DNA of 40,492 nt from a virus. The DNA lies in the UHGV virus genome UHGV-0071542, one strand, 5' to 3'. The notes under the pieces were generated by a model. That model saw only the letters and a list, made by a program, of their open reading frames with translations. It was not told the DNA's origin and made no database searches. The position numbers were made by a program, and so were the translations under genes. Positions 1,189 through 40,358 of this stretch are shown here, piece after piece; within the stretch, counting starts at the first letter, position 1; each line of letters begins with the position of its first letter.

Positions 1189-1205
1189 AATCATTCCCAC
1201 TCAAT
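1189..1205. repeat. attL core, 17-bp direct repeat AATCATTCCCACTCAAT
   Basis: Exact 17-mer also at 40342-40358, where it overlaps the guaA stop codon. Confidence 0.7.
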
Positions 1206-3395: not shown

Positions 3396-5411
3396 TTACG
3401 CACTTCGTAATAAATGTTTAGACATAGCAGCAATACAGAAACAAGATAAGTCAGCGTAATTTACACCATACATATCCGATTCTTTATCATAAGTAACCAG
3501 AGAATAGTCTGTAGGGTTAAGATTATATTTCTCCATAATCAGCATTACTTCTTGAGCCATACATCCGAAGTGATACTTATCAGATTCTGCATCTGTCCAT
3601 TTAAACTTTATCATGCTAATGGCTAATTCTAGCCCTGCACTATACTCTGCCGTAGATATCTCATACACATCTTTACATCTACCGTCAGATGTTTGTATTA
3701 CACCATTAGTTGCAAAGACAGTTTGCCATCTACGACTAGATTGACCACAAGTTCTTTGATTATCTATCTGGGGGGCAACACTACCATCTATACGCAAATA
3801 GTTATCTTCCGCTTGTGCGCCTCCCATAACACCTTCTAAAAAAGGCAATCCTTTGTGATTATTTACAATGAATTTATTGGAGGTATCTTCTGATATTCCG
3901 GTGCCAGCATCTGGACCTATAAAAATATTACCATTTCCAGTTGGTAATTTTCTTCCTGCTCTTGCTCCTATCATAACATTCAGGTCACCTGAGGATAGGG
4001 AATTGAGAGCATCAACACCAATTGCTGTATTAAAATTACCTGTGAGAGTCCCAGTGTATGGGTTCTCAGTTGATGATACTCCTCGCAATGCTCCATTACC
4101 TATAGCTGTGTTATGATCACCTTGCTTTAACTCCCTACCAGCTGCATTACCAATAAGGGTATTTCCATTACATTTATCATACCCAAGACGTACACCTTGA
4201 GGGTCTGTGTAGATGCCAGTACGCATTCCTGCAGAGCGTCCTATTGCAACATTAGCTTCTCCAGAATGGAGTTGCTGCAAAGCTGACATACCAACTGCAA
4301 CATTGAACCTACCATCCTTACACTCGTTTAGCGCATCCCTGCCAATACCAATCATGTTATTTCCAGTGGTGGCTTTCTTCAAAGCATTAATACCTATACT
4401 GATAATCTCTGTTCCAGAAAATGGCGACTTATCTGTAAGATCATCTTCTAGAGTATCTCCTGACAAACCACCCACACCAACCACGATTGTGTTAGTGCCG
4501 CTAGTTATGTTGCGACCAGAACTTGGTCCAAGCAAAACCAATTGATTACCTTTACCAGAGTCAGTGTAATTTTTTGCGGCATCATAACCTAAAATAAGGT
4601 TGCTATGAGACTGAGCTACATTGGTAAACGGAATTCGTTCCGCTCCTGTCTCTTTAATTATTTTTCCTGGGCCATAAAATCTTCCATTAATATCTTCCGG
4701 CAATAAATACGTGCCATCAGGAACATAAACACCTTGTGGCGAAGCAGATGCCGCGGCAATGAAAGCATCTGTATCATTTGTGACTCCATCACCTTTAGCG
4801 CCAAAGTCAAGAACACTGACAGTATCCCGCATCTTATCCTGAAACGTTCTATATACCGCGCCTGAACCATACTGAATAAACCAACCAAAACCACCAACAA
4901 CCCCGGCGATTGCAGCATCGACATAATTACGCATTGAGCGATTATTTACAGCGTCCTGCTCAAGTGATGGATCTGCAAGGTTAGAAATTCTGTTTTGCTT
5001 TGCATCGTAATATTTTGCAAGCAAAGATGGTTTCATCAATGCACGTCTGAACCACCCAAAACATTGCTGGATCAGCATCGTCAGGTAGTCAAAGGCATCT
5101 TCATGCACTTCGGGGAAAAACTTTCCCTGATTGCGAAGGTCTGTCTCCTGCACTACATCAAGCACACGATCTATCGTAATTCGCCATCCAGCAGCAAGCG
5201 GCGACGGAAGAACAACAGAACCGCCACTATAAGTGCCCGCCCCAGTTACCGTATAACCGGTATCCAGAACCAATTCTGTTACGTTCCCGTTCAGGTCAGA
5301 CACCTGAACAACCAGGTCGGATTTTTTGAAAATACGGAAGGTATACGGAAATGATGTCGTAACGCCGTTACCTGTGTATTCGTTGTGGTCAACTTCGGTT
5401 GAGACCGTCAT
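3396..5411 (-). CDS. Tail fibre/tailspike with C-terminal intramolecular chaperone (peptidase S74-like) domain
   Basis: N-terminal fibre anchor motif YTGNGVTTSFPYTF; Gly/Asn-rich beta-helix-like repeats; C-terminal chaperone-like segment; 3' two-thirds AT-rich. Confidence 0.75.
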   Translation of the reverse strand: MTVSTEVDHNEYTGNGVTTSFPYTFRIFKKSDLVVQVSDLNGNVTELVLDTGYTVTGAGTYSGGSVVLPSPLAAGWRITIDRVLDVVQETDLRNQGKFFPEVHEDAFDYLTMLIQQCFGWFRRALMKPSLLAKYYDAKQNRISNLADPSLEQDAVNNRSMRNYVDAAIAGVVGGFGWFIQYGSGAVYRTFQDKMRDTVSVLDFGAKGDGVTNDTDAFIAAASASPQGVYVPDGTYLLPEDINGRFYGPGKIIKETGAERIPFTNVAQSHSNLILGYDAAKNYTDSGKGNQLVLLGPSSGRNITSGTNTIVVGVGGLSGDTLEDDLTDKSPFSGTEIISIGINALKKATTGNNMIGIGRDALNECKDGRFNVAVGMSALQQLHSGEANVAIGRSAGMRTGIYTDPQGVRLGYDKCNGNTLIGNAAGRELKQGDHNTAIGNGALRGVSSTENPYTGTLTGNFNTAIGVDALNSLSSGDLNVMIGARAGRKLPTGNGNIFIGPDAGTGISEDTSNKFIVNNHKGLPFLEGVMGGAQAEDNYLRIDGSVAPQIDNQRTCGQSSRRWQTVFATNGVIQTSDGRCKDVYEISTAEYSAGLELAISMIKFKWTDAESDKYHFGCMAQEVMLIMEKYNLNPTDYSLVTYDKESDMYGVNYADLSCFCIAAMSKHLLRSA

Positions 5412-5515
5412 GTTAAATCTCCAGATAGTCGCAGCACCCGTTGCGCCGCATATCTGGTTATTCTATTACCTGAAAAACCATATATGGATAGAAAGGCTGT
5501 AAATACGAATAGATA

Positions 5516-5530
5516 TTACCTTTCAGGTAA
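5516..5530. promoter_or_regulatory. Operator-like palindrome TTACCTTTCAGGTAA
   Basis: Perfect 5-5-5 inverted repeat; identical 16-mer ATTACCTTTCAGGTAA at 22440-22455; a left-arm-only copy at 5466-5480. Confidence 0.5.
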
Positions 5531-5567
5531 TTTGCAAAACGTGCTGGATAGCAAACAAATTATTTGC

Positions 5568-5587
5568 TACTGTATAAATATACAGTT
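5568..5587 (+). promoter_or_regulatory. LexA (SOS) box TACTGTATAAATATACAGTT
   Basis: CTGT-N8-ACAG with AT-rich centre, 18/20 match to consensus TACTGTATATATATACAGTA; 20 bp upstream of the 5608 start. Confidence 0.65.
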
Positions 5588-5607
5588 ATTGCATGGAGAA
5601 GATTAAG

Positions 5608-5865
5608 ATGCAGCAGTATCACTATCCACTGGAAGACGGATTTACCGAAAGGATTCACACGCCGGGAGGCGTCAGGTCACTGGTGGAGGGATCGCACTTG
5701 ATGAAATTACTCCGGGATCTCGATAAGGATGGATTTAATGTCGATGGCCCACTTGCCGAACTGACTGCACTGATTAACTACGTCACCAGCTCACAGATGT
5801 CTATGCGGGATCTGCAAACACATCTCGACTATTGTGCCGAACAATTACGAAAACAAACCCGGTAA
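5608..5865 (+). CDS. Small SOS-regulated protein, candidate antirepressor
   Basis: ORF-track ORF 5593..5865; ATG at 5608 has RBS GGAGA; opposite strand to flanking late genes; complex hairpin plus T-run downstream. Confidence 0.5.
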   Translation: MQQYHYPLEDGFTERIHTPGGVRSLVEGSHLMKLLRDLDKDGFNVDGPLAELTALINYVTSSQMSMRDLQTHLDYCAEQLRKQTR

Positions 5866-5897
5866 ATTTAAAGGCCGCAAGAGCGGCCTGTGACATG

Positions 5898-6194
5898 TCA
5901 CGCTCTTTTTCTGAATGATAGCCATTCGAAAAATGATGACATTCCACCGCAGACAATAGCAAAGATGATCCCACCAAAGAAGAGAAGGCCAGCCTGCCAC
6001 CACTCCCACCGCCATACATCCACAGCGCCAACCATACCAACAATCGCTCCAACAAATGGAATATAGCTCACGATGAAAGCAATGGGGGCTGCAATTATCC
6101 AGTGCAATCCCCACCATGATTCAAGCCCAGCCATAATTGCTGCCAACTGAAAAAGACCAACGACGATATAAACAATGAATCCTATAGCTTGCAT
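5898..6194 (-). CDS. Small integral membrane protein (98 aa, about 3 TM)
   Basis: Highly hydrophobic, Trp-rich; lies between internal virion gene and tail fibre. Confidence 0.45.
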   Translation of the reverse strand: MQAIGFIVYIVVGLFQLAAIMAGLESWWGLHWIIAAPIAFIVSYIPFVGAIVGMVGAVDVWRWEWWQAGLLFFGGIIFAIVCGGMSSFFEWLSFRKRA

Positions 6195-6389
6195 GTAGTC
6201 ACCTATTTACCCAGTAAAAATCAGAGGCCTCCCCTCAATAAGGCTTGCAACAAGAACTATTCCCTGCACAACAAAGATGAACCAGCAAATAGCTTGAGTC
6301 TGAGGGTTAAGAAAATATTTGTAGCGGTCAATAAATAACAACCCACCAGAAATTATCACACTCAAAATAATTAAAAACACAACACTTCC

Positions 6390-8864
6390 TTATTGCGGAG
6401 TGACATCCTGAGGTCGCCACCAGTATGTCTGGTTAAACTCTTTCTTCGAACGTTGCTCCATTTTACGCAAATAGCCTGGTGAAAAATACTCCTGCATCTG
6501 GTTAAAGATCATATGATCGAGAGCCGCCTTTAAGTACCAGAGATTCGCACCTGGCATCAAACCTTTCCCCAGCTTCACCAGATCACCACCAGTCTGCTCA
6601 CTCTTCCCTTCCACAGCATTTAACGGTATGCCCTGAGCAATCTTCACTACGTCATCAACCAGACCAGCTACCGGGCCAAGCATCGACGCCAGCGCGCCGC
6701 TTCCGTACCTAGTGTGATCTGACAATAAAAAGTCACCGTAAAGGCCAAGACCACCACCTTTCAGTAGAGCACCAAGCCAAAATTTAGCAGCATCTTCTCC
6801 TGTCATCTCGCGAGGATTACGACCAGACGCAAGGTCGTTAAGTTGCTGCGACAAAGCGCCAAGAATGGTCGTACTGGCAATAAACGTCGCAATATATGCC
6901 GCACGCCCACCAGCAGACGGCATACCCATAGCGCGTGACCAGTGACGCATAACCACCGAGATAGGGAACGATTTAAACAGGAAAACACTTCTCGTTAATT
7001 CACCTTTCCATGTTCCACGCTGAATACCAGAACCGGTTATCAGTTGCTCACGTGCTCCTGGTGTAATAACAGCCATATCAACTTCTTCAGTTACGGCACC
7101 GAGCAGTTTACGCATTGCCTCAAATTTCACGCGTTCAGGCTCACCAAGATGTTTAACTGCTGAATCAGGGATACGCATAATGCTTTCCGGTGTCAGCATC
7201 GTATTATTGCCGTTCCCCCAGTCCTCCTGTTGCGCCAGCTTCCATACGCTCCAGTCTGTGTCAGTAATCCCTTTGCTTTTCAGGATACGAAAATCAGAAT
7301 CATCGAGGCTACGAAGGTCTGGTGTCCGTGACACTACTTCTCCCAGGCTTCCCATCATGGTTACGCCATAGGCGCGCTTGTGCGCATCTGACCATGCTGT
7401 AAGCCCACTGGCACGCATTACCGCCGTTGCAGCCCAACGAGATACAGACGGCCCCATATTATCCATCGCCCAGCGGTTAACGCTGCCAAGTAGAGATTCC
7501 ATCGCCAGACCAGCGCGGCGCGCCCGCGCAAGTTCTGTACGGTTCGTTGGGTCCATAGCTTCAAGCTGGTTGCGGAATAACTGGTTCATTGGAAGGTTGG
7601 TAACCTTCGCAGACAGATACATGGTTCCAAGATCAGAGAACGATGACAGCAACGCGGATCCGAGTCTGCTGGCAACCAGCCAGTTGCGGATATTGTCAGA
7701 CCATCGCGCGATGTGCGGATTCGCTACAGGCTGTGTCTTTCCGGAAATAAAGTTGTACAGATTCTCTGTGTTGTTCGCCAGCCGCTCGACTTTACCGGTT
7801 TTACTCGGGTTAGCTGTTGCCGTTTCTGCCTTCACCTGATCAAGAAGAGAGCGGAAAACATGATCGGGGTTTGGGCCATATGTTTCCACCAGTGCAATAT
7901 CTTTACTGATACCTTCAAGGTGACCGACCATGATTTCCCATAGAGAGCGATCGCCATAAAGTTGCTGATATTGCAGATAGGAATCTGCATCTTTGAAATG
8001 TATCTGTCGTGATGCATTACCACGGTTAGCACGTGCGCCGGAAATTCGCATTCCGGTATCAGTAAGCTTATTCAGCCCACCAGTAGCGATCGTGTTATAA
8101 GCCTCTCCAAGAAATGCAGACAACTCGGCATCGTTCATCAGTTGTCCATCGGCTCGGGTATAATATTTGCGATCCAGCTTACCTATAACATCGCTAACCC
8201 ATTTATCTTTTGATACCGCCCCAACCTTTTCCATAGAATGATGTTGAGGGATCCCCCAGTTTTCGAGATAGCCAATGTCCCCACCAGCATCATTAAACCG
8301 GCGGCGCAGCAGCTCTGTAACTTCTCTCCACGCCTTAGCACCTTTTCTTGCTTTAGCATTGCCAGTATTTTGCCCCCGCATTTCATATACCAGGTCACGT
8401 ACGCCCGCTTCATCTTCAAACAGACCAAAAAAGCGAGGATCAACTGCTTCGAATGCCTCCTGCAATTGACTCAATGCATAATCACGGGTGGCTTTTGTTC
8501 TGGATTCAACAGAGAGGAAATTCGATTTACCGTCTGCATTAAAAGCAATAGTACGGTTAAGAGCGCCAAGTTTCCCATCAGCCCCTTGATAGCTATTGAT
8601 AAATTTATCCAATCTCTGACGTGCGGCTATAGTGAGGGCCACACGACGTTTCTTTAATGCCGCTTCTCGCTGTAATTCTTCAGATGCCAATTGTGCTGCA
8701 CGATACAACCGTTCTGATTCGGAAAGTTGTCGCCACGACATCGGGTCATCACGAGCAATGGAGCGCATATTTCGATAAATGCGGTCTTCAATGTTCTGTA
8801 TTTCTCGCGCCGTTAACGTGCGCTGCGCCGCCTGCTGGACCGCTTGTATACATTCCTGTCTCAT
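6390..8864 (-). CDS. Internal virion/ejection protein (824 aa)
   Basis: Large protein in the block of large genes between tail-tube and tail-fibre genes, as in T7-like and epsilon15-like virions. Confidence 0.6.
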   Translation of the reverse strand: MRQECIQAVQQAAQRTLTAREIQNIEDRIYRNMRSIARDDPMSWRQLSESERLYRAAQLASEELQREAALKKRRVALTIAARQRLDKFINSYQGADGKLGALNRTIAFNADGKSNFLSVESRTKATRDYALSQLQEAFEAVDPRFFGLFEDEAGVRDLVYEMRGQNTGNAKARKGAKAWREVTELLRRRFNDAGGDIGYLENWGIPQHHSMEKVGAVSKDKWVSDVIGKLDRKYYTRADGQLMNDAELSAFLGEAYNTIATGGLNKLTDTGMRISGARANRGNASRQIHFKDADSYLQYQQLYGDRSLWEIMVGHLEGISKDIALVETYGPNPDHVFRSLLDQVKAETATANPSKTGKVERLANNTENLYNFISGKTQPVANPHIARWSDNIRNWLVASRLGSALLSSFSDLGTMYLSAKVTNLPMNQLFRNQLEAMDPTNRTELARARRAGLAMESLLGSVNRWAMDNMGPSVSRWAATAVMRASGLTAWSDAHKRAYGVTMMGSLGEVVSRTPDLRSLDDSDFRILKSKGITDTDWSVWKLAQQEDWGNGNNTMLTPESIMRIPDSAVKHLGEPERVKFEAMRKLLGAVTEEVDMAVITPGAREQLITGSGIQRGTWKGELTRSVFLFKSFPISVVMRHWSRAMGMPSAGGRAAYIATFIASTTILGALSQQLNDLASGRNPREMTGEDAAKFWLGALLKGGGLGLYGDFLLSDHTRYGSGALASMLGPVAGLVDDVVKIAQGIPLNAVEGKSEQTGGDLVKLGKGLMPGANLWYLKAALDHMIFNQMQEYFSPGYLRKMEQRSKKEFNQTYWWRPQDVTPQ

Positions 8865-22440: not shown

Positions 22441-22455
22441 TTACCTTTCAGGTAA
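22441..22455. promoter_or_regulatory. Operator-like palindrome TTACCTTTCAGGTAA next to a TTGACA -35 hexamer
   Basis: Identical to the site at 5516-5530; TTGACA at 22419-22424. Confidence 0.5.
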
Positions 22456-22777: not shown

Positions 22778-22854
22778 GTGGCATTAGCTCAGTTGGACAG
22801 AGCAACCGCCTTCTAAGCGGTTGGTCGCAGGTTCGAATCCTGCATGCCACGCCA
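22778..22854 (+). tRNA. tRNA-Arg (anticodon UCU), phage-encoded
   Basis: 77 nt; 7-bp acceptor stem GTGGCAT/ATGCCAC; D-arm GCTC..GAGC; anticodon loop CTTCTAA; T-arm GCAGG-TTCGAAT-CCTGC; 3' GCCA. Confidence 0.85.
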
Positions 22855-23057: not shown

Positions 23058-23072
23058 TTACCTTAAAGGTAT
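23058..23072. promoter_or_regulatory. Operator-like palindrome TTACCTTAAAGGTAT overlapping the moron promoter
   Basis: Lies between TTGATG (23044-23049) and TATAAT (23070-23075). Confidence 0.45.
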
Positions 23073-25367: not shown

Positions 25368-25960
25368 TGATTACCATCCTGACGTTCTTTGAGTCGCTTC
25401 CTGGCTGCTGCTATGCGATCAGCAATTGTCACATTCACATTAACATCCAGACGTTCTTTGAACGCGTTGACATCAACATGCTTACCAATCAGCTCAAGGT
25501 TCTTCACCTTGTCAGGCCATTTAATTTTTTTGAGGATTGTCTCTATCGAATCCTCGTTCATGTTCATGATGGTCGATGACAAATCAAAGCCACTAAGCGT
25601 AGTGCGCCAGATTTTCGGCCACTCACGGATTGGTTTAAGGCTCCCATCGTCGTTGAGGATGTCGATCACGTCCATCTGGTCGATCTCCACTAGGCGCATG
25701 AGAACGTAATCAGCACTGACGCGCATTCGTTTGTTGCGCTCCTCCATCAACTCGGCAATCCGTTTTTGAATGCGTTCATCGCGCATCATGACACTGGCTT
25801 TAACTGCCGCTGTATTTGGGGAGAATCCTGCGTTAATCGCTGCCTGAGTCTGGTTTTCAGGCGTTTTGATGTATGACTGGCAATAAGCCTCCTGCATTGC
25901 TGTGAGCGGCTTAAATTGCGTTGATTTGCGTTTATAGGTTTTAGGTTCAGCAGGCATCAT
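25364..25960 (-). CDS. Terminase small subunit
   Basis: Helix-turn-helix-like N-terminus; precedes terL with overlap; start set to MMPAEP (ORF track extends upstream through a repeat region). Confidence 0.65.
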   Translation of the reverse strand: MMPAEPKTYKRKSTQFKPLTAMQEAYCQSYIKTPENQTQAAINAGFSPNTAAVKASVMMRDERIQKRIAELMEERNKRMRVSADYVLMRLVEIDQMDVIDILNDDGSLKPIREWPKIWRTTLSGFDLSSTIMNMNEDSIETILKKIKWPDKVKNLELIGKHVDVNAFKERLDVNVNVTIADRIAAARKRLKERQDGNQ

Positions 25961-25967
25961 AACCACC

Positions 25968-26000
25968 GTGGTAATAGTTACCGTTGTGGTAATAGTAACA
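25968..26000. repeat. Tandem direct repeat GTGGTAATAGT(T/A)AC x2 upstream of terS
   Basis: Copies at 25968-25981 and 25986-25999; contains GGTAA-N3-TTACC. Confidence 0.45.
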
Positions 26001-26034: not shown

Positions 26035-26268
26035 TCAAAGTCCATCAAATTCATCGTAAAAACTCTCGTCAAGATACCCTTCCCATTTACCGCGAATGAA
26101 AATTACATCCTCACCGCAAGGGTGCTGACTGTCGATAACTATATCCCTCCTGGCGCAACCATACTTGTGCATAAGAAATTTAACCTCTTTCGGAAAATTT
26201 GCTGAGTTATCTCTCATATCTTCAAGGTCGTAGCGTATTTTTGGCATAACACCTTCGTGACATGTCAC
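26035..26268 (-). CDS. Hypothetical protein (77 aa)
   Basis: Coupled ORF in early-right accessory block. Confidence 0.4.
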   Translation of the reverse strand: MTCHEGVMPKIRYDLEDMRDNSANFPKEVKFLMHKYGCARRDIVIDSQHPCGEDVIFIRGKWEGYLDESFYDEFDGL

Positions 26269-26606
26269 GCTATTAATTTCGTTTCATGCCAGCCTTTGGT
26301 CACCCAGCATTGCGAGTCACCATTACACGGGCATGAATTCACAGGAACTCTCTCGCCGCACTTACCGCAACGTTTTCTGCTGATAGATTTTATACGCCCG
26401 TGCACGCGTACATCATCCTGGCGGATCAGTAACGCGATATACTCACCAAATTCGTAAGGTGCACGCCCGGGGCGACGTGTGGCACAGTTACGCTCCAGCA
26501 TTTCAATTTCCTGAGCATCAAGCACAATCTCCAGCTTACGTACACCGGATTCAGCTTGTCTGGCTCTCTGAGCGGCTTTGCGCTCTGCTGCTGATTTAGC
26601 CATCAA
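26265..26606 (-). CDS. Hypothetical protein with C-terminal Cys-rich zinc-ribbon-like motif (113 aa)
   Basis: CGKCGE...CPCNGDSQC cluster. Confidence 0.4.
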   Translation of the reverse strand: MMAKSAAERKAAQRARQAESGVRKLEIVLDAQEIEMLERNCATRRPGRAPYEFGEYIALLIRQDDVRVHGRIKSISRKRCGKCGERVPVNSCPCNGDSQCWVTKGWHETKLIA

Positions 26607-30899: not shown

Positions 30900-30914
30900 T
30901 TACCTCTAAGGTAA
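30900..30914. promoter_or_regulatory. Operator-like palindrome TTACCTCTAAGGTAA overlapping the RBS, just downstream of TAATTA
   Basis: Minus sense: TTGATT-18nt-TTAATTACCTTAGAGGTAAATCATG, same arrangement as at 34039-34081. Confidence 0.5.
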
Positions 30915-30961
30915 TTAAAAACCACATAAGACACGAAATCAATAGAGTTTAGAATATTTTA

Positions 30962-30976
30962 TTACCCAACAGGTAA
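30962..30976. promoter_or_regulatory. Operator-like palindrome TTACCCAACAGGTAA inside a promoter spacer
   Basis: Minus sense: TTGATA-ATTACCTGTTGGGTAA-TAAAAT (16-nt spacer). Confidence 0.5.
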
Positions 30977-31013
30977 TTATCAAGGCGTAAAAAAATGCGC
31001 TATCGCGCTGGTA

Positions 31014-31814
31014 TTACTTGATAAATCCTGCCGCCTTTCCCCGCCTGTATTCCTCCATCAGCCACTGCGCCGGTGTTATTCCCCCAAGGGTGGCGGCGTT
31101 AGGCATGCACCCGAAACTTCGCCCTGGTGGATGGTAAACGTCTCTCCCTGTGTCCGGAGGCGTACTCATGGGTTCTGGCTTTGCCTGTATGCTGATCACC
31201 GGATCGGGTATCTGCTGTCCGGAAGCCACCTTTTTCGCCCAATCATCGAGCAGCCTGCGCGCGTGTTTCTCAACCTCTATCTCGCTAAGCTGGCGCTGAT
31301 ACATTGCACGGCGGGTATCACATACGACCCAGTACATAACCGGATGCCGCCACGGGAATCTTTCGGGACCACCAGGATATAAACTTTTTTCCTTGCTGTA
31401 CCGGTGAAACTCCGTCATCACATCGTCAATGGTGACGCCAAGAACCATCTTGCTGTCTTTGCACCACTTGATGAATTGCCCTGGCGACGGCCAGAACGGA
31501 GAATCACTGGCGCGGGCGTGGCGCATACCAGCAGAAACCTGTTCACGGGTTCGGATCCCCCCTTCGGCAAACGCAGCAATCCACTGCTGTTTTGCAGCAA
31601 CTTCCTGCTCTGGCGTCTTCAGGTTGGTTACCACTGCCGCCGGAAACAGTTGTTTCAACTGTTTGAAAAGGGCATCAACAAGCCTCTCTGCTGACATGTT
31701 CACTACGTTGTCATTGTTGACGTACTGATGCTCATAACCTGACATGCGAGAAAGGGCTTCTCCGTCACGGTTTTGTATTGCGGTAAAAACGTTGTTCACA
31801 AGAAATCCTCCCAT
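31014..31814 (-). CDS. Replication protein P-like helicase loader
   Basis: GMRHARASDSPFWPSPGQFIKWC aligns with lambda P GMRVARRQNRPFLPSPGQFVAWC; follows the initiator gene. Confidence 0.75.
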   Translation of the reverse strand: MGGFLVNNVFTAIQNRDGEALSRMSGYEHQYVNNDNVVNMSAERLVDALFKQLKQLFPAAVVTNLKTPEQEVAAKQQWIAAFAEGGIRTREQVSAGMRHARASDSPFWPSPGQFIKWCKDSKMVLGVTIDDVMTEFHRYSKEKSLYPGGPERFPWRHPVMYWVVCDTRRAMYQRQLSEIEVEKHARRLLDDWAKKVASGQQIPDPVISIQAKPEPMSTPPDTGRDVYHPPGRSFGCMPNAATLGGITPAQWLMEEYRRGKAAGFIK

Positions 31815-32611
31815 GCTTCAGGGCTGTTCCAGTGCGGAACGTTGTTATCAGGTAATGTTGATTGCTTCTGTCTGCTAATCTGCAGCCGCCTTGCCAGCTT
31901 CTGCTCCCACTGCGCCTGATGGTATGCCTTACCCTCAGCCATCCAGTAAATTCTGAACTCTGCAAGTTCCTGTGCCGTTGGCAGACTGTCCAGGTAGATC
32001 CCCTGCAATGAGCTTTTCCGAAGAAAGTCATCTGATGGTTGCCATTGTTCATGCATGACAAATTTGCCTAATTGCCCTGGCCCACCAGGAGGAACAAAGT
32101 TATTCATCACGGCGTTGTTTGCGCCGGGGTCATGAGGCACAGAATCCCCGCTTTTTGTCCTGCTCTCCCTCTCTTGGTTAAATGACTGGTTATATGACTG
32201 GTTCTGGATCCCGTTTTTGGGATCATTCAACATCCCGTTTTTGGGATCATTCAACATCCCGTTTTTGTGTATATTCCCGTTTTCGGTAACATTACCGTTT
32301 TCGGGTTCATTACCCCCTTCCCGGTTGCCTTTAATGTTCCCGTTTTTGGTTATATTAAGAGAGAAAACCCGCACTCTTTTCGTCGCTCCCTTTCTCTCTC
32401 CGGTATCTGAAATAAGCCCCATTTTCATGAGCGATATAAGCCCGGCCTGCACGGTTTTTTTATTCAGGCAAGTGTCTTTAACGAGGCGTTCTATGCTGGG
32501 GTAGCAGAGGTTATATTCATCGGCTCTGTCAGCCATCGAGAGCAGTATGAGCTTTAATGACGAGCTACCTGGATCTGTCTCCCAGGCCCAATCTGTTGCA
32601 TGTCTGCTCAT
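31796..32611 (-). CDS. Replication initiator (HTH N-terminus, Asn/Gly-rich middle encoded by iterons, DnaT-like C-terminus)
   Basis: Iteron array lies inside the coding region as in lambda O; precedes P-like gene. Confidence 0.6.
   Translation of the reverse strand: MSRHATDWAWETDPGSSSLKLILLSMADRADEYNLCYPSIERLVKDTCLNKKTVQAGLISLMKMGLISDTGERKGATKRVRVFSLNITKNGNIKGNREGGNEPENGNVTENGNIHKNGMLNDPKNGMLNDPKNGIQNQSYNQSFNQERESRTKSGDSVPHDPGANNAVMNNFVPPGGPGQLGKFVMHEQWQPSDDFLRKSSLQGIYLDSLPTAQELAEFRIYWMAEGKAYHQAQWEQKLARRLQISRQKQSTLPDNNVPHWNSPEAWEDFL
32209..32356. repeat. Origin iterons: about 6 copies of TCCCGTTTT(T)NGG, including two exact 24-mers TCCCGTTTTTGGGATCATTCAACA
   Basis: Exact 24-mers at 32209-32232 and 32233-32256, degenerate copies to about 32356; ATGACTGGTT x2 at 32181-32203. 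Confidence 0.7.
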
Positions 32612-32827: not shown

Positions 32828-32906
32828 GGTAAGCCCTGTTATTAGTATTGGGATTACGGTTATTTTGTGCTGACACAAAAAAAAGATCAACCATATTTGG
32901 TTTTTT

Positions 32907-32921
32907 ATTACCTTTGAGGTA
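32907..32921. promoter_or_regulatory. Operator-like site TTACCTTTGAGGTAC (one arm imperfect)
   Basis: Between a hairpin after the Cro-like gene (about 32931-32960) and the next gene. Confidence 0.4.
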
Positions 32922-32977
32922 CGAATAGATATGAAAAGACCGCCGGATGGCGGTCTACAGAGGGTTGTGGCTGGATA

Positions 32978-33208
32978 TCATGAGTAGAAGAAGTATGCCA
33001 GTTCTGCTTTTGAGCGCAGCCATTGTCTTGATTTACAGGCTTTAAAAAGCCCATCCATCAATACCTTACCTGGCATTTTGCGCTTACCTGTTAAGTGAGT
33101 CTGGATATAGTGACTCGTCGTTCCGGCTTCCTGTGCGAAGGCTTCACGCTCATCCGGAGTAAGTGCAAGCCAGTGCTTTTTGAAATCGAAATGTCCGTTA
33201 TCGCTCAT
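32978..33208 (-). CDS. Cro-like HTH regulator (76 aa)
   Basis: Small HTH protein transcribed divergently from the repressor gene toward replication genes. Confidence 0.55.
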   Translation of the reverse strand: MSDNGHFDFKKHWLALTPDEREAFAQEAGTTSHYIQTHLTGKRKMPGKVLMDGLFKACKSRQWLRSKAELAYFFYS

Positions 33209-33244
33209 AGCTATTGCCTGATATTTATTTCAGATAATAAATAT

Positions 33245-33307
33245 TCACCTATAAGGTAACAAAAATCAAGGATAGTTACCCATGAGGTGCATTTACCTGT
33301 TGGGTAA
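33245..33307. promoter_or_regulatory. Divergent promoter/operator region with three operator-like sites
   Basis: TCACCTATAAGGTAA (33245-33259), TTACCCATGAGGTGC (33276-33290), TTACCTGTTGGGTAA (33293-33307); minus-sense -35 TTGTTA and -10 TATTAT overlap the first site. Confidence 0.55.
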
Positions 33308-33362
33308 TATTGCTTTAAATTGAATCATCTACTGATTCATATATGAGGCGATTTTCCAGAAA

Positions 33363-33947
33363 ATGAAAAGTATCCAGGACGTCCGCAGGCAAAATCTCAA
33401 CGACTTGATCGACCGTGAATTCAATGGTGTTCAGACGCGGATGGCCGAAAAACTTGGAACTCAGGCAAATCTGGTAAACCGCTGGGCTCTTGGTAAGAAG
33501 GTTATCGGCGATCAGGTTGCGCGAAAAATTGAAGCTGCCGCCAATAAACCCCGTAACTGGCTTGATATCGATCGCTCGCTTTCTCAGGAAGGTTTTCAGC
33601 CTGTCGGCCCAAGCGACATTGGCCAGCTGGCGGCTCACAACCTGGAACGCTGGATGAGCGAAAGCCGCGACCTTTCAACACAGGGAAAACTTCACCGCGC
33701 ATCCGGCGTAGCCCAGGTGACAATCAGCCGCCTGTTAAACAATGAGGTCAGCGTTTCCATTTCCACCCTGGAGAATGTTGCATCTGCATTCGGGCGTCAC
33801 GGATATGAACTACTGATTCACCCGCACGACCCTGCAACTATCAACTATGACCGCTCGCGCTACGCATTGTTACCTGAAACAGAGAAAGCAAAGATCGAAA
33901 GTTACATTGAATTTGTCATCAACCAGAACGAAAAAAGCAAACAATAA
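33363..33947 (+). CDS. Prophage repressor candidate: tandem HTH domains, no peptidase S24 domain
   Basis: Two HTH-like segments (residues about 10-70 and 95-160); cI-like position; no autocleavage motif seen. Confidence 0.5.
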   Translation: MKSIQDVRRQNLNDLIDREFNGVQTRMAEKLGTQANLVNRWALGKKVIGDQVARKIEAAANKPRNWLDIDRSLSQEGFQPVGPSDIGQLAAHNLERWMSESRDLSTQGKLHRASGVAQVTISRLLNNEVSVSISTLENVASAFGRHGYELLIHPHDPATINYDRSRYALLPETEKAKIESYIEFVINQNEKSKQ

Positions 33948-33967
33948 AACTATAGTTTTCAGCAAGT

Positions 33968-33992
33968 AAGCCGCCTCATGGCGGCTTTTTTA
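33968..33992 (+). terminator. Rho-independent terminator after repressor gene
   Basis: Hairpin AGCCGCC-TCAT-GGCGGCT followed by TTTTTTATT. Confidence 0.65.
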
Positions 33993-34004
33993 TTGCCAGA
34001 TAGA

Positions 34005-34081
34005 TTACCTTACGGGTAATTTTTTTAACTCATATCTATTGACACCAAACCAAATAAGCATAATTATTACCTCAACGGTAA
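34005..34081 (+). promoter_or_regulatory. Early-left promoter flanked by two operator-like sites
   Basis: TTACCTTACGGGTAA (34005-34019); -35 TTGACA (34039-34044); -10-like TAATTA (34061-34066); TTACCTCAACGGTAA (34067-34081). Confidence 0.6.
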
Positions 34082-34100
34082 CAGACCGAGGTAACAAGTT

Positions 34101-34250
34101 ATGCAGTGGAAAATCATCAACGGTTGGTACTGCGTTACTGCATGCGGATTCATGAGCTGGAAGTTCCGCACCTTACAGGAAGGCATCAAGTGGGCTTTCA
34201 TCAGCAAAGAAGCTCGCGATGTGGCAAACGATAACGAGATATGGGAGTAG
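34101..34250 (+). CDS. Small Trp-rich protein (49 aa), first gene of early-left operon
   Basis: Below ORF-track cutoff; RBS GAGGT 8 nt upstream; ends 8 nt before next gene. Confidence 0.35.
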   Translation: MQWKIINGWYCVTACGFMSWKFRTLQEGIKWAFISKEARDVANDNEIWE

Positions 34251-34258
34251 GTTAGCAA

Positions 34259-35293
34259 ATGAGTGAATTATCAATCATCGAAATCACACCAGACATGGCA
34301 CCAAGAATTTACGTTGAAAAAGGGCTGGAAAAGTTTCTCGAGCAGATCCGTGAAGGTGTTAATGAAGTGCCTGACATTAGCACAGACAAAGGCAGAAAGC
34401 GCATTGCATCTCTGGCTGCGAAGGTTTCAAGAAGTAAAACAGCGGTAGAAAAACCAGGACGTGATTATCTGAAACGCCTGAAAGAACAGCCGAAAGTAGT
34501 TGAAGCAGAGTTACGACGCTTCGTAACCGAATGCGATCGGCTTCGTGATGAAGTACGCCGCCCACTCACCGAGTGGGAAAATGCTGAGAAATTACGCACT
34601 GAAGCACTGCAACAACGCCTGACAAATTTGCGAGCACTAGCTGACGTGATCGATCTCTCCGGAAACTACTTGCCATCATCTGATATTCAGGAACGAATTC
34701 AAGAGGCTAAATCAGTAGCACTTGATGAAAGTTGGCAGGAGTACGCAGCAGAAGCTGGAGTAGCCAAGGATTCAACCATCCAGAAACTGGAAGAATCACT
34801 CGCAGTAGCTCAAAAACGCGAGCATGAAGCCGCTGAGCTGGAGCGACTTCGCAAAGAAGCGGAGGAAAAAGCGCGCATTGAGCGAGAAGAGAATATCCGA
34901 CGGGAAGCTGCTGAACAGGCCAGGCTCGAAGCTGAACAAAAAGCGAAAGCTGAAATTGAGGCTGCGGCACGCCTGGCGGCGGAAGAAAAAGCACGTGCTG
35001 AAGTAGCAGAACGTCAGCGAATTGAAGCAGAGCAGCGTGCACGACGCGAAAAAGAAGAAGCCGTTGCCGAGGAACGCCGACGCCAAGAGGCGGCAGAAAA
35101 AGCCCGCCTTGACGAACAGAAGCGTATCGCCGACGAAGAAGCGCGCCGAGCTGCAGATAAAGAGCATCGCCGTACCGTTAACCGCAGAGTAATCGCAGAT
35201 CTGATAGCCCAAGGCATTCACGAAGAATTCGCGCAGAAAGCAATGTTGGCTATCGCTGGCGGCAAAGTGCAGGACGCGTATATCAAATATTGA
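34259..35293 (+). CDS. Highly charged coiled-coil protein with EAR/EAA-rich repeats (344 aa)
   Basis: Long runs of Glu/Ala/Arg/Lys heptad-like repeats. Confidence 0.5.
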   Translation: MSELSIIEITPDMAPRIYVEKGLEKFLEQIREGVNEVPDISTDKGRKRIASLAAKVSRSKTAVEKPGRDYLKRLKEQPKVVEAELRRFVTECDRLRDEVRRPLTEWENAEKLRTEALQQRLTNLRALADVIDLSGNYLPSSDIQERIQEAKSVALDESWQEYAAEAGVAKDSTIQKLEESLAVAQKREHEAAELERLRKEAEEKARIEREENIRREAAEQARLEAEQKAKAEIEAAARLAAEEKARAEVAERQRIEAEQRARREKEEAVAEERRRQEAAEKARLDEQKRIADEEARRAADKEHRRTVNRRVIADLIAQGIHEEFAQKAMLAIAGGKVQDAYIKY

Positions 35294-40193: not shown

Positions 40194-40208
40194 ATACCTT
40201 TAAGGTAA
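40194..40208. promoter_or_regulatory. Operator-like site ATACCTTTAAGGTAA upstream of integrase
   Basis: About 40 bp upstream of int start on the sense strand. Confidence 0.4.
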
Positions 40209-40341: not shown

Positions 40342-40358
40342 AATCATTCCCACTCAAT
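40342..40358. repeat. attR core, 17-bp direct repeat AATCATTCCCACTCAAT
   Basis: Identical to 1189-1205; contains guaA stop codon (TCA on + strand at 40344-40346). Confidence 0.7.

What the first reader, a model, noticed from the sequence alone, without database searches (positions are those of the whole stretch)
33209..34081. Immunity region with lambda-like operator arrangement but a non-cleavable two-HTH repressor
Three operator-like sites lie between the divergent Cro-like and repressor genes, and two more flank the downstream early-left promoter, mirroring OR1-3 and OL. The repressor candidate is built from two HTH modules with no C-terminal peptidase domain. A single polypeptide could contact both half-sites of TTACC-N5-GGTAA.
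Basis: partly seen in the sequence, partly recalled or inferred. Interest (0 to 1): 0.5.

Follow-up and report, generated by a model that had tools for sequence, protein, structure and literature searches.

The report
Known Rep–Ant phage immunity switch
This is the immunity region of an epsilon15/phiV10-type prophage. Its non-cleavable repressor, palindromic operators and SOS-controlled antirepressor match the published Rep–Ant switch of Salmonella phage SPC32H, so the feature is real but already known.

Summary
Three TTACC-N5-GGTAA sites lie between the divergent cro-like gene (32978-33208, -) and the repressor gene (33363-33947, +). Two more bracket the early-left promoter. The repressor has two HTH_3-type modules and no S24 peptidase.

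The system is not new. The window is a Uetakevirus prophage, about 97% identical to phiV10, phiv142-3 and ZX5 across this region. The repressor matches the crystallised SPC32H Rep over its full length (PDB 5D50/5D4Z, E 3.5e-42). A LexA-boxed gene at 5608-5865 encodes a homologue of SPC32H Ant (E 1.6e-46).

In the solved homologue the N-terminal HTH is the DNA-binding domain. The second HTH-like module is a dimerisation domain, followed by a tetramerisation and Ant-binding tail.

The operator is also not confined to OR and OL. Fourteen sites occupy eight intergenic loci, at positions syntenic in six diverged relatives and already annotated as repressor sites in the epsilon15 RefSeq record.

Induction most likely runs: LexA cleavage, then Ant expression, then Rep tetramer disassembly.

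Verdict: already known, low interest. The only mildly open point is a strictly conserved 62-bp spacing of promoter-flanking operator pairs.

The parts
33363..33947 (+). rep: 194-aa prophage repressor. It has an N-terminal XRE-type HTH DNA-binding domain (about 1-70), a flexible linker (74-83), a middle HTH-fold dimerisation domain (about 85-152) and a C-terminal tetramerisation/Ant-binding tail (about 156-192).
   Evidence: Pfam HTH_3 with two stretches and no S24. Full-length match to PDB 5D50_A, the SPC32H Repressor, at E 3.5e-42. AF2 model with pLDDT 79.9; top Foldseek hits are 5D50 and 5D4Z. Domain names are taken from PMC9986798.
32978..33208 (-). cro-like first gene of the early-right operon (76 aa).
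   Evidence: Divergent from rep. PHROG 35 'transcriptional repressor' at E 8.7e-13. No Pfam or PDB match. It is the homologue of epsilon15 gp39 / phiV10 p41.
33245..33259 (.). OR operator TCACCTATAAGGTAA. It lies inside the core of the rightward (minus-strand) promoter.
   Evidence: The promoter-like site TTGTTA-17-TATTAT at 33262..33234 (-) overlaps it. Conserved in six genomes.
33276..33290 (.). OR operator TTACCCATGAGGTGC, the weak middle site.
   Evidence: Two mismatches. TTACC and GGT are invariant in six genomes, and the site is a perfect palindrome in epsilon15 and SPC32H.
33293..33307 (.). OR operator TTACCTGTTGGGTAA, next to the rep promoter region and 17 bp from the middle site.
   Evidence: Perfect match. 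Conserved in six genomes.
33968..33987 (+). Intrinsic terminator after rep.
   Evidence: 8-bp G+C-rich stem followed by a T run. Annotated as a terminator in phiV10.
34005..34019 (.). OL operator TTACCTTACGGGTAA, upstream of the -35 of the early-left promoter.
   Evidence: Perfect match. Conserved in six genomes.
34039..34067 (+). Early-left promoter-like site TTGACA-17-AATTAT.
   Evidence: 10 of 12 consensus matches. CTATTGAC and ATTATTACC are invariant in six genomes.
34067..34081 (.). OL operator TTACCTCAACGGTAA, overlapping the -10/+1 region. It is 62 bp centre-to-centre from the upstream OL site.
   Evidence: Perfect match. The 62-bp spacing is conserved.
5608..5865 (+). ant: 85-aa antirepressor. 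The ORF opens at 5593, but the GGAG Shine-Dalgarno favours the ATG at 5608.
   Evidence: PDB 5D50_E 'Anti-repressor protein' at E 1.6e-46. About 87% identical to the gene annotated 'ant' in SPC32H. PHROG 450, and the C-terminal part of PHROG 1760 'anti-repressor'.
5570..5585 (.). LexA box CTGTATAAATATACAG (20-mer TACTGTATAAATATACAGTT at 5568-5587), just upstream of ant.
   Evidence: This is one of two exact CTGT-N8-ACAG matches in the window, and the only one with the A/T-rich centre typical of LexA boxes. The box is kept upstream of ant in five of the six genomes; the Klebsiella copy has ATGT in place of CTGT.
5516..5530 (.). Rep operator TTACCTTTCAGGTAA in the intergenic region between the tail-fibre gene and ant, abutting a TTGCAA -35-like hexamer.
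   Evidence: Perfect match. Invariant position in six genomes. The syntenic site is annotated 'protein_bind repressor' in epsilon15.
30900..30976 (.). Operator pair (30900-30914 and 30962-30976, 62 bp apart) around a minus-strand promoter-like site, downstream of the replication genes.
   Evidence: TTGATA-16-TAAAAT at 30983..30956. Syntenic pairs with 62-bp spacing occur in all six genomes.
32908..32922 (.). Operator TTACCTTTGAGGTAC, just past the terminator that follows the cro-like gene.
   Evidence: The terminator lies at 32956..32937.
25960..25992 (.). Two adjacent operators (25960-25974 and 25978-25992), upstream of the small terminase gene.
   Evidence: A syntenic site is annotated as a repressor site at epsilon15 12-27.
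22441..22455 (.). Operator upstream of the portal/structural operon. A further 1-mismatch site lies at 23058-23072.
   Evidence: Syntenic with the annotated epsilon15 repressor site at 2931-2947.
40194..40208 (.). Operator-like site ATACCTTTAAGGTAA upstream of the integrase gene.
   Evidence: One-mismatch sites occur at the syntenic position in epsilon15, SPC32H, Tyrion and the Klebsiella phage.

Best explanation
This is the immunity switch of an integrated epsilon15/phiV10-type podophage (genus Uetakevirus). It is an orthologue of the SPC32H Rep-Ant antirepression system.

Rep (33363-33947) is a three-part protein. It has an N-terminal XRE-type HTH DNA-binding domain, a middle domain with an HTH-like fold that serves dimerisation, and a C-terminal strand-helix tail that tetramerises the protein and is the docking site for Ant.

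Rep tetramers use pairs of N-terminal domains to read the symmetric operator aTTACC-N5-GGTAAt. These operators overlap or bracket the rightward promoter (three sites), the early-left promoter (two sites) and at least six further intergenic control regions. Those include the ant promoter, the terminase and structural operons and the promoter after the replication genes. One repressor therefore silences most transcription units directly.

Rep has no autocleavage domain. Induction works through the 85-aa Ant (5608-5865), whose promoter carries a near-consensus LexA box. DNA damage leads to RecA-stimulated LexA cleavage. Ant is then made, binds the C-terminal domains of Rep, breaks up the tetramer and releases it from DNA.

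Shown here: homology, domain layout, operator statistics, synteny, and the LexA box.
Shown in close relatives by others: repressor function (ZX5), tetramer and Ant complex (SPC32H structures).
Inferred for this prophage: DNA binding by the N-terminal domain, Ant action, and LexA control.
For: Identity of the element. The region is 96-98% identical to phiv142-3, phiV10, TL-2011b and ZX5. att core repeats at 1189 and 40342 show an integrated prophage.

Rep. Full-length match to 5D50_A at E 3.5e-42, and to 5D4Z (Rep 92-198) at E 3.6e-20. The AF2 model retrieves those entries as the top 12 Foldseek hits. The aromatic tetramer-interface residues reported for SPC32H, F187 and F190, align to Y181 and the invariant F184 here.

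Ant. Match to 5D50_E at E 1.6e-46. The homologous gene is annotated 'ant' in SPC32H and SPC32N. An exact LexA box sits 22 bp upstream of the ATG. The operator, -35-like hexamer and LexA-box layout is conserved in six genomes.

Operators. Eight perfect and six near-perfect sites, all intergenic, with a symmetric consensus. The same motif is the top palindrome, at syntenic positions, in phiv142-3, SPC32H, epsilon15, Tyrion and a Klebsiella phage. Seven of these positions are annotated 'protein_bind: repressor' in epsilon15 NC_004775.2. The N-terminal recognition helix is invariant alongside the invariant half-site.

Literature. Rep binds palindromic sites as a tetramer, and Ant is a tetramer that breaks it (PMC9638917). 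The DBD-MDD-CAD architecture is described in PMC9986798. ZX5 repressor over-expression blocks the lytic cycle (PMC9782041).
Against: - No experiment exists for this particular prophage.
- Rep here is only about 42% identical to SPC32H Rep, so details of oligomerisation or Ant docking could differ.
- I could not read the primary SPC32H papers (J Virol 2013; PNAS 2016), which are not held. What they show about operator sequences is known to me only second-hand or from memory.
- A Rep operator abutting the ant -35 (5516-5530) raises an unanswered question. How is ant expressed after LexA cleavage if Rep is still bound there?
- The cro-like protein may share some of the OR sites.
- The epsilon15 'repressor' site annotations may be predictions rather than footprints.
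Confidence: 0.88

Rival explanations
1. A single Rep polypeptide acts as a 'single-chain dimer', with its two HTH modules each reading one half-site of TTACC-N5-GGTAA.
For: Two HTH_3-type modules are detected in one 194-aa chain. The phiV10 annotation also notes two HTH motifs. The two half-site centres are one helical turn apart.
Against: - The operator is symmetric at every informative position, whereas the two modules have no detectable similarity and different putative recognition helices.
- Across diverged homologues the half-site and the N-terminal helix NLVNRW stay fixed while the second helix varies. For example, the otherwise invariant Q118 is a proline in SPC32H.
- In the solved homologue the second module is a dimerisation domain, and the DNA-binding form is a tetramer.
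Confidence: 0.03
2. The middle HTH-like domain keeps a second, distinct DNA-binding activity in addition to dimerisation. It might bind non-specifically or to another motif, helping to bridge or compact DNA.
For: The domain scores above the Pfam HTH_3 gathering threshold. Q118 and R123 in its third helix are invariant in 36 close homologues.
Against: - No second over-represented motif was found among intergenic 9-mers; the repeated words were parts of the Rep operator, terminator stems or the att-flank duplications.
- Q118 is replaced by proline in SPC32H Rep.
- Published descriptions assign this domain to dimerisation only.
Confidence: 0.05
3. The TTACC-N5-GGTAA sites are mainly the targets of another regulator, such as the cro-like protein or a late-gene regulator, and not of Rep.
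For: In lambda-type switches Cro and CI share operators. The cro-like protein matches a PHROG annotated as transcriptional repressor. Many sites sit in front of late or structural operons.
Against: - The epsilon15 record assigns these sites to the repressor.
- Rep of SPC32H is reported to bind palindromic sites.
- Site positions over core promoters fit repression.
- Sharing by Cro at OR would add to Rep binding rather than replace it.
Confidence: 0.04

Closest known systems
Rep-Ant antirepression switch of Salmonella phage SPC32H (PDB 5D4Z, 5D50; Kim & Ryu 2013 J Virol; Kim et al. 2016 PNAS)
   Same: - Same genus and same gene order.
- Rep is homologous over its full length, with the DBD-MDD-CAD layout.
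- Ant is about 87% identical.
- The LexA box lies in front of ant.
- The operator half-sites TTACC/GGTAA are identical and at syntenic positions.
   Different: - Rep is only about 42% identical.
- The operator spacers here are less A/T-rich.
- OL has two sites here against three in SPC32H and epsilon15.
- The host is E. coli rather than Salmonella.
Immunity regions of phiV10, phiv142-3, TL-2011b and vB_EcoP_ZX5 (E. coli Uetakevirus)
   Same: 96-98% nucleotide identity over 32900-34300. The repressor is annotated with two HTH motifs. The ZX5 repressor was tested by over-expression.
   Different: This prophage lacks the about 2-kb module carrying the BRO-N 'anti-repressor' (phiv142-3 Orf8, ZX5 ORF4) and keeps only the small Ant.
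Salmonella phage epsilon15 (NC_004775.2)
   Same: Its record already annotates ATTACC-N5-GGTAAT as repressor-binding sites at the terminase, structural-operon, gp19 (ant)/tail-fibre, OL and post-replication positions, all syntenic with the sites here.
   Different: The epsilon15 record does not annotate the three OR sites, although they are present in its sequence (33341, 33358, 33388). Its gp19 (the Ant homologue) is annotated only as hypothetical.
Lambda CI/Cro switch
   Same: - Divergent repressor and cro genes with a tripartite OR.
- The repressor gene is followed by OL/PL on the same strand.
- Operators overlap core promoters.
   Different: - There is no S24 autocleavage domain.
- Induction is by antirepressor.
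- The operators are spread over eight loci rather than two.
- The tetramer is built by a p53-like tail rather than by CI C-terminal domain contacts.
LexA-controlled antirepressor systems with non-cleavable repressors (Gifsy-1/3 and Fels-2 prophages, coliphage 186 Tum; PMC3121763)
   Same: The logic is the same: a stable repressor, an antirepressor gene placed outside the immunity region near tail genes, and direct LexA control.
   Different: Ant here belongs to the SPC32H structural class. From memory of the abstract of Kim & Ryu 2013, that class was described as distinct from the sipho- and myovirus antirepressors. I did not test homology to GfoA or Tum.

Membership tests
SPC32H-type Rep-Ant antirepression system | Repressor homologous over its full length to SPC32H Rep | tested here: met
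   phmmer against PDB: 5D50_A at E 3.5e-42, residues 1-190 aligned to 2-197. Top 12 Foldseek hits.
SPC32H-type Rep-Ant antirepression system | Three-part architecture: N-terminal DBD, middle dimerisation domain, C-terminal tetramerisation/Ant-binding tail with an aromatic interface (F187/F190 in SPC32H) | tested here: met
   The AF2 model shows two helical bundles, a disordered linker at 74-83 and a long C-terminal helix at 172-193. 5D4Z (Rep 92-198) aligns to 89-190. Y181 and the invariant F184 align to F187 and F190.
SPC32H-type Rep-Ant antirepression system | Small Ant protein homologous to SPC32H Ant, encoded next to the tail-fibre gene | tested here: met
   5D50_E at E 1.6e-46. The gene at 5608-5865 is divergent from the tail-fibre gene at 3396-5411.
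SPC32H-type Rep-Ant antirepression system | LexA box at the ant promoter | tested here: met
   CTGTATAAATATACAG at 5570-5585, an exact match. The box aligns in all six genomes, with an ATGT variant in the Klebsiella copy.
SPC32H-type Rep-Ant antirepression system | Repressor not cleaved on SOS induction; Ant binds Rep and releases it from DNA | not testable with these tools
   Only the absence of an S24 domain could be checked. The biochemistry rests on the SPC32H literature as summarised in PMC9638917 and PMC9986798.
SPC32H-type Rep-Ant antirepression system | Tetrameric Rep binds palindromic operators | tested here: inconclusive
   Symmetric, strongly over-represented, intergenic and syntenic palindromes are present. 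Binding and stoichiometry could not be tested.
Lambda CI / LexA-like autocleaving repressors | C-terminal S24 peptidase domain with a Ser-Lys dyad | tested here: not met
   No S24 match in Pfam at E<=1. The C-terminal half matches 5D4Z instead.
Lambda CI / LexA-like autocleaving repressors | Tripartite OR between divergent repressor and cro genes, plus OL before the early-left operon | tested here: met
   Sites at 33245, 33276 and 33293, and at 34005 and 34067.
Lambda CI / LexA-like autocleaving repressors | Operators confined to OL and OR | tested here: not met
   Nine further sites at six other intergenic loci.

The most novel reading that the evidence does not exclude
Operator pairs that bracket a promoter are spaced exactly 62 bp centre-to-centre. 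This holds at two different promoters (early-left, and the one after the replication genes) in all six diverged Uetakevirus genomes examined, with a single 63-bp exception. The intervening sequence has diverged without indels.

62 bp is about six helical turns. Rep is a tetramer with two DNA-binding pairs whose middle domains sit about 100 Angstrom apart. One tetramer may therefore clamp both operators and enclose the promoter in a very small loop or bend. Together with the eight-locus operator set, this would make Rep a direct, genome-wide silencer rather than a two-promoter switch.
Probability: 0.3. Interest if true: 0.4.

Novelty: already known. Interest (0 to 1): 0.12.

Why it matters
It matters mainly as a correct annotation. 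This E. coli prophage carries the SPC32H-type Rep-Ant switch. Its induction is therefore expected to depend on LexA and a small antirepressor, not on repressor cleavage. The gene at 5608-5865, annotated 'hypothetical' in most phiV10-like records, is that antirepressor.

phiV10-type phages are used as O157 reporter and biocontrol chassis. Knowing the full operator set (14 sites) and the ant/LexA control point is practically useful for engineering lytic or non-inducible derivatives. It does not open a new biological question beyond the geometry of promoter-flanking operator pairs.

Tried and rejected
- Primary papers. I tried to read Kropinski 2007 (PMC2698709), Kim & Ryu 2013 (PMC3807360) and Kim 2016 (PMC4983836). 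None is held, so I relied on secondary descriptions and on the PDB and GenBank records.
- Internal duplication of the two HTH modules. BLASTP found no alignment at E<=100, so this was rejected.
- Covariation between recognition helix and operator across homologues. This was uninformative in the strict sense: both the half-site and the core of the N-terminal helix (N36, R40, W41) are invariant down to 52% identity. It gives co-conservation only.
- S24 peptidase search: none found.
- A second antirepressor (BRO-N type) in the window: absent. Only the small Ant gives a hit.
- The cro-like protein against Pfam, NCBIfam and PDB: no significant hit. Only PHROG 35 matches, so 'Cro-like' rests on position and that match.
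- A second intergenic motif that the middle domain might bind: none found.
- Promoter assignments for the rep promoter and several late sites could not be fixed with the consensus scan.

Full report
**What is there**

The stretch 32978-34250 holds the following, in order:
- a minus-strand 76-aa gene (32978-33208);
- a 154-bp intergenic region;
- a plus-strand 194-aa gene (33363-33947);
- an intrinsic terminator (33968-33987);
- a strong promoter-like site, TTGACA-17-AATTAT (34039-67);
- a string of plus-strand early genes leading into RecE/RecT-type recombination genes.

To the left of the 76-aa gene lie a short gene and O/P-type replication genes on the minus strand.

**The operator observation**

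TTACC-N5-GGTAA occurs in the divergent intergenic region at 33245 (1 mismatch), 33276 (2 mismatches) and 33293 (perfect). Perfect copies at 34005 and 34067 sit on either side of the early-left promoter.

The motif is far beyond chance:
- There are eight perfect copies in 40.5 kb, where I calculate about 0.04 expected.
- No other 5-N5-5 palindrome arm exceeds two copies.
- All 14 sites with at most 1 mismatch (plus the syntenically supported 33276 site) are intergenic, in a window that is about 89% coding under my approximate gene model.
- The consensus is symmetric, a-TTACC-t...a-GGTAA-t, with ACC and GGT invariant in all 14.

Further sites are:
- 5516, between the tail-fibre gene and a small plus-strand gene;
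- 22441 and 23058, upstream of the structural operon;
- 25960 and 25978, upstream of the small terminase gene;
- 30900 and 30962, after the replication genes;
- 32908, just past the terminator that follows the 76-aa gene;
- 40194, upstream of the integrase gene.

**What the element is**

The region is 96-98% identical to E. coli phages phiv142-3, phiV10, TL-2011b and vB_EcoP_ZX5, and about 77% identical to Enterobacter phages. All belong to genus Uetakevirus, the epsilon15-like podophages. A 17-bp att core is repeated at 1189 and 40342, so the window is an integrated prophage with host flanks. The core matches the guaA attachment core reported for ZX5.

**The repressor**

Pfam finds two HTH_3-type stretches and no S24 peptidase. 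The phiV10 record already says 'two helix-turn-helix motifs'.

The protein matches chain A of PDB 5D50, 'Repressor' in the Rep-Ant complex of Salmonella phage SPC32H, over its full length (E 3.5e-42). It also matches 5D4Z, which is Rep residues 92-198.

An AlphaFold model built on 36 homologues (pLDDT 79.9) shows two helical bundles joined by a disordered linker (74-83), then a long C-terminal helix. Its 12 best PDB matches are those two entries.

According to PMC9986798, SPC32H Rep has three parts:
- an N-terminal DNA-binding domain;
- a middle dimerisation domain (MDD);
- a C-terminal domain (CAD, or 'TetDloop') that makes the tetramer through Phe187 and Phe190 and binds the antirepressor.

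Those two residues align to Tyr181 and the invariant Phe184 here.

PMC9638917 summarises that Rep binds DNA as a tetramer and that the dimer binds only weakly. The DNA-binding pairs that read the palindromic sites come from different dimers. [quoted passage not shown]

In ZX5, over-expression of the same repressor removed free phage and cut endolysin and holin transcripts by more than 99.9% (PMC9782041). The ZX5 gene is 96.7% identical at the nucleotide level.

**The induction arm**

An exact LexA box, CTGTATAAATATACAG, lies at 5570-5585. It is one of two exact CTGT-N8-ACAG matches in the window and the only one with the A/T-rich centre typical of LexA boxes. It sits 22 bp upstream of an 85-aa gene (5608-5865).

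The product of that gene matches chain E of 5D50, 'Anti-repressor protein', at E 1.6e-46. It is about 87% identical to the gene annotated ant in SPC32H and SPC32N.

The upstream region is conserved across six genomes: a Rep operator abutting a TTGCA -35-like element, then the LexA box.

The mechanism that best fits is therefore the published one. LexA cleavage frees ant, and Ant then disassembles Rep.

This prophage lacks the about 2-kb module that, in phiv142-3 and ZX5, carries a BRO-N 'anti-repressor'. The C-terminal part of that protein is itself Ant-like (43% identity, E 1e-17).

The idea that one chain reads both half-sites fails on four independent counts:
1. The operator is symmetric.
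2. The two modules are not similar to each other.
3. Across five repressors diverged to about 42% identity, the half-site and the N-terminal helix NLVNRW are constant, while the second module's helix changes.
4. The solved homologue assigns the second module to dimerisation.

I could not do a true covariation test, because neither the half-site nor the core of the N-terminal helix varies among available homologues.

**Comparison with relatives**

TTACC-N5-GGTAA is the top palindrome, with 8-11 perfect copies, in phiv142-3, SPC32H, epsilon15, Tyrion and Klebsiella phage BUCT711. It occupies the same syntenic control regions in each.

The epsilon15 RefSeq record already marks seven of these as 'protein_bind: repressor'. 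The operator set is therefore known too, at least as annotation.

**What remains mildly open**

Operator pairs flanking the early-left promoter and the post-replication promoter are 62 bp apart in every genome, with one 63-bp case, despite sequence divergence between them. The inner OR pair is 17 bp apart.

This fits a tetramer with two DNA-binding pairs clamping both sites. PMC9986798 notes that the structural mechanism of repression 'has not been extensively characterized'.

It is also unclear how ant escapes Rep bound at 5516-5530 once LexA is gone.

**Verdict**

The system is an already described one, the SPC32H-type Rep-Ant switch with the epsilon15/phiV10 immunity region. Interest is low.

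Noticed in passing
window 1189-1205 and 40342-40358: A 17-bp direct repeat, AATCATTCCCACTCAAT. It is the reverse complement of the attP/attB core reported for phage ZX5 at the 3' end of guaA. It marks the prophage ends, and 1-1188 carries two host-type lipoprotein/secreted-protein genes.
   Followed up: partly
window 32208-32312: Five tandem copies (24- and 18-bp spacing) of ATCCCGTTTTTGGGATCATTC inside the DnaT/HTH_36 replication-initiator gene (31796-32611). They look like origin iterons embedded in the initiator gene, as in lambda O.
   Followed up: no
window 30900/30962 and 34005/34067; syntenic pairs in L002-L006: Promoter-flanking operator pairs are spaced exactly 62 bp (one case 63 bp) in all six Uetakevirus genomes compared, at two different promoters. 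This suggests a geometric constraint from the Rep tetramer.
   Followed up: partly
window 5865-5871 versus L002 (phiv142-3) 5106-7067: The about 2-kb module that carries a BRO-N 'anti-repressor' and small ORFs in phiv142-3 and ZX5 is absent here. The C-terminal 80 residues of that BRO-N protein are 43% identical to the small Ant, so those phages carry two Ant-domain proteins and this prophage carries one.
   Followed up: partly
window 5890-5907 and 26257-26274: The palindrome-containing sequence GTGACATGTCACGCT occurs twice, both times at a boundary where the window stops being collinear with phiv142-3. It may be a recombination or module-junction sequence.
   Followed up: no
window 5608-5865 versus 33363-33947: Ant is about 87% identical to SPC32H Ant, while its partner Rep is only about 42% identical. 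This hints that Ant may act across heterologous Reps (cross-induction), or that only a small Rep surface is constrained.
   Followed up: no
window 22778-22854: A tRNA-Arg(tct) lies on the plus strand within the 1.5-kb mostly non-coding stretch between the terminase and portal operons. This stretch also holds two Rep operator sites and two terminator-like hairpins.
   Followed up: no
window 5455-5480: ATTCTATTACC...AACC.TATATG is invariant in six genomes, between the tail-fibre start codon and the ant operator. It contains a lone TTACC half-site and a TAGAAT -10-like element on the tail-fibre strand. It is possibly the tail-fibre promoter.
   Followed up: no
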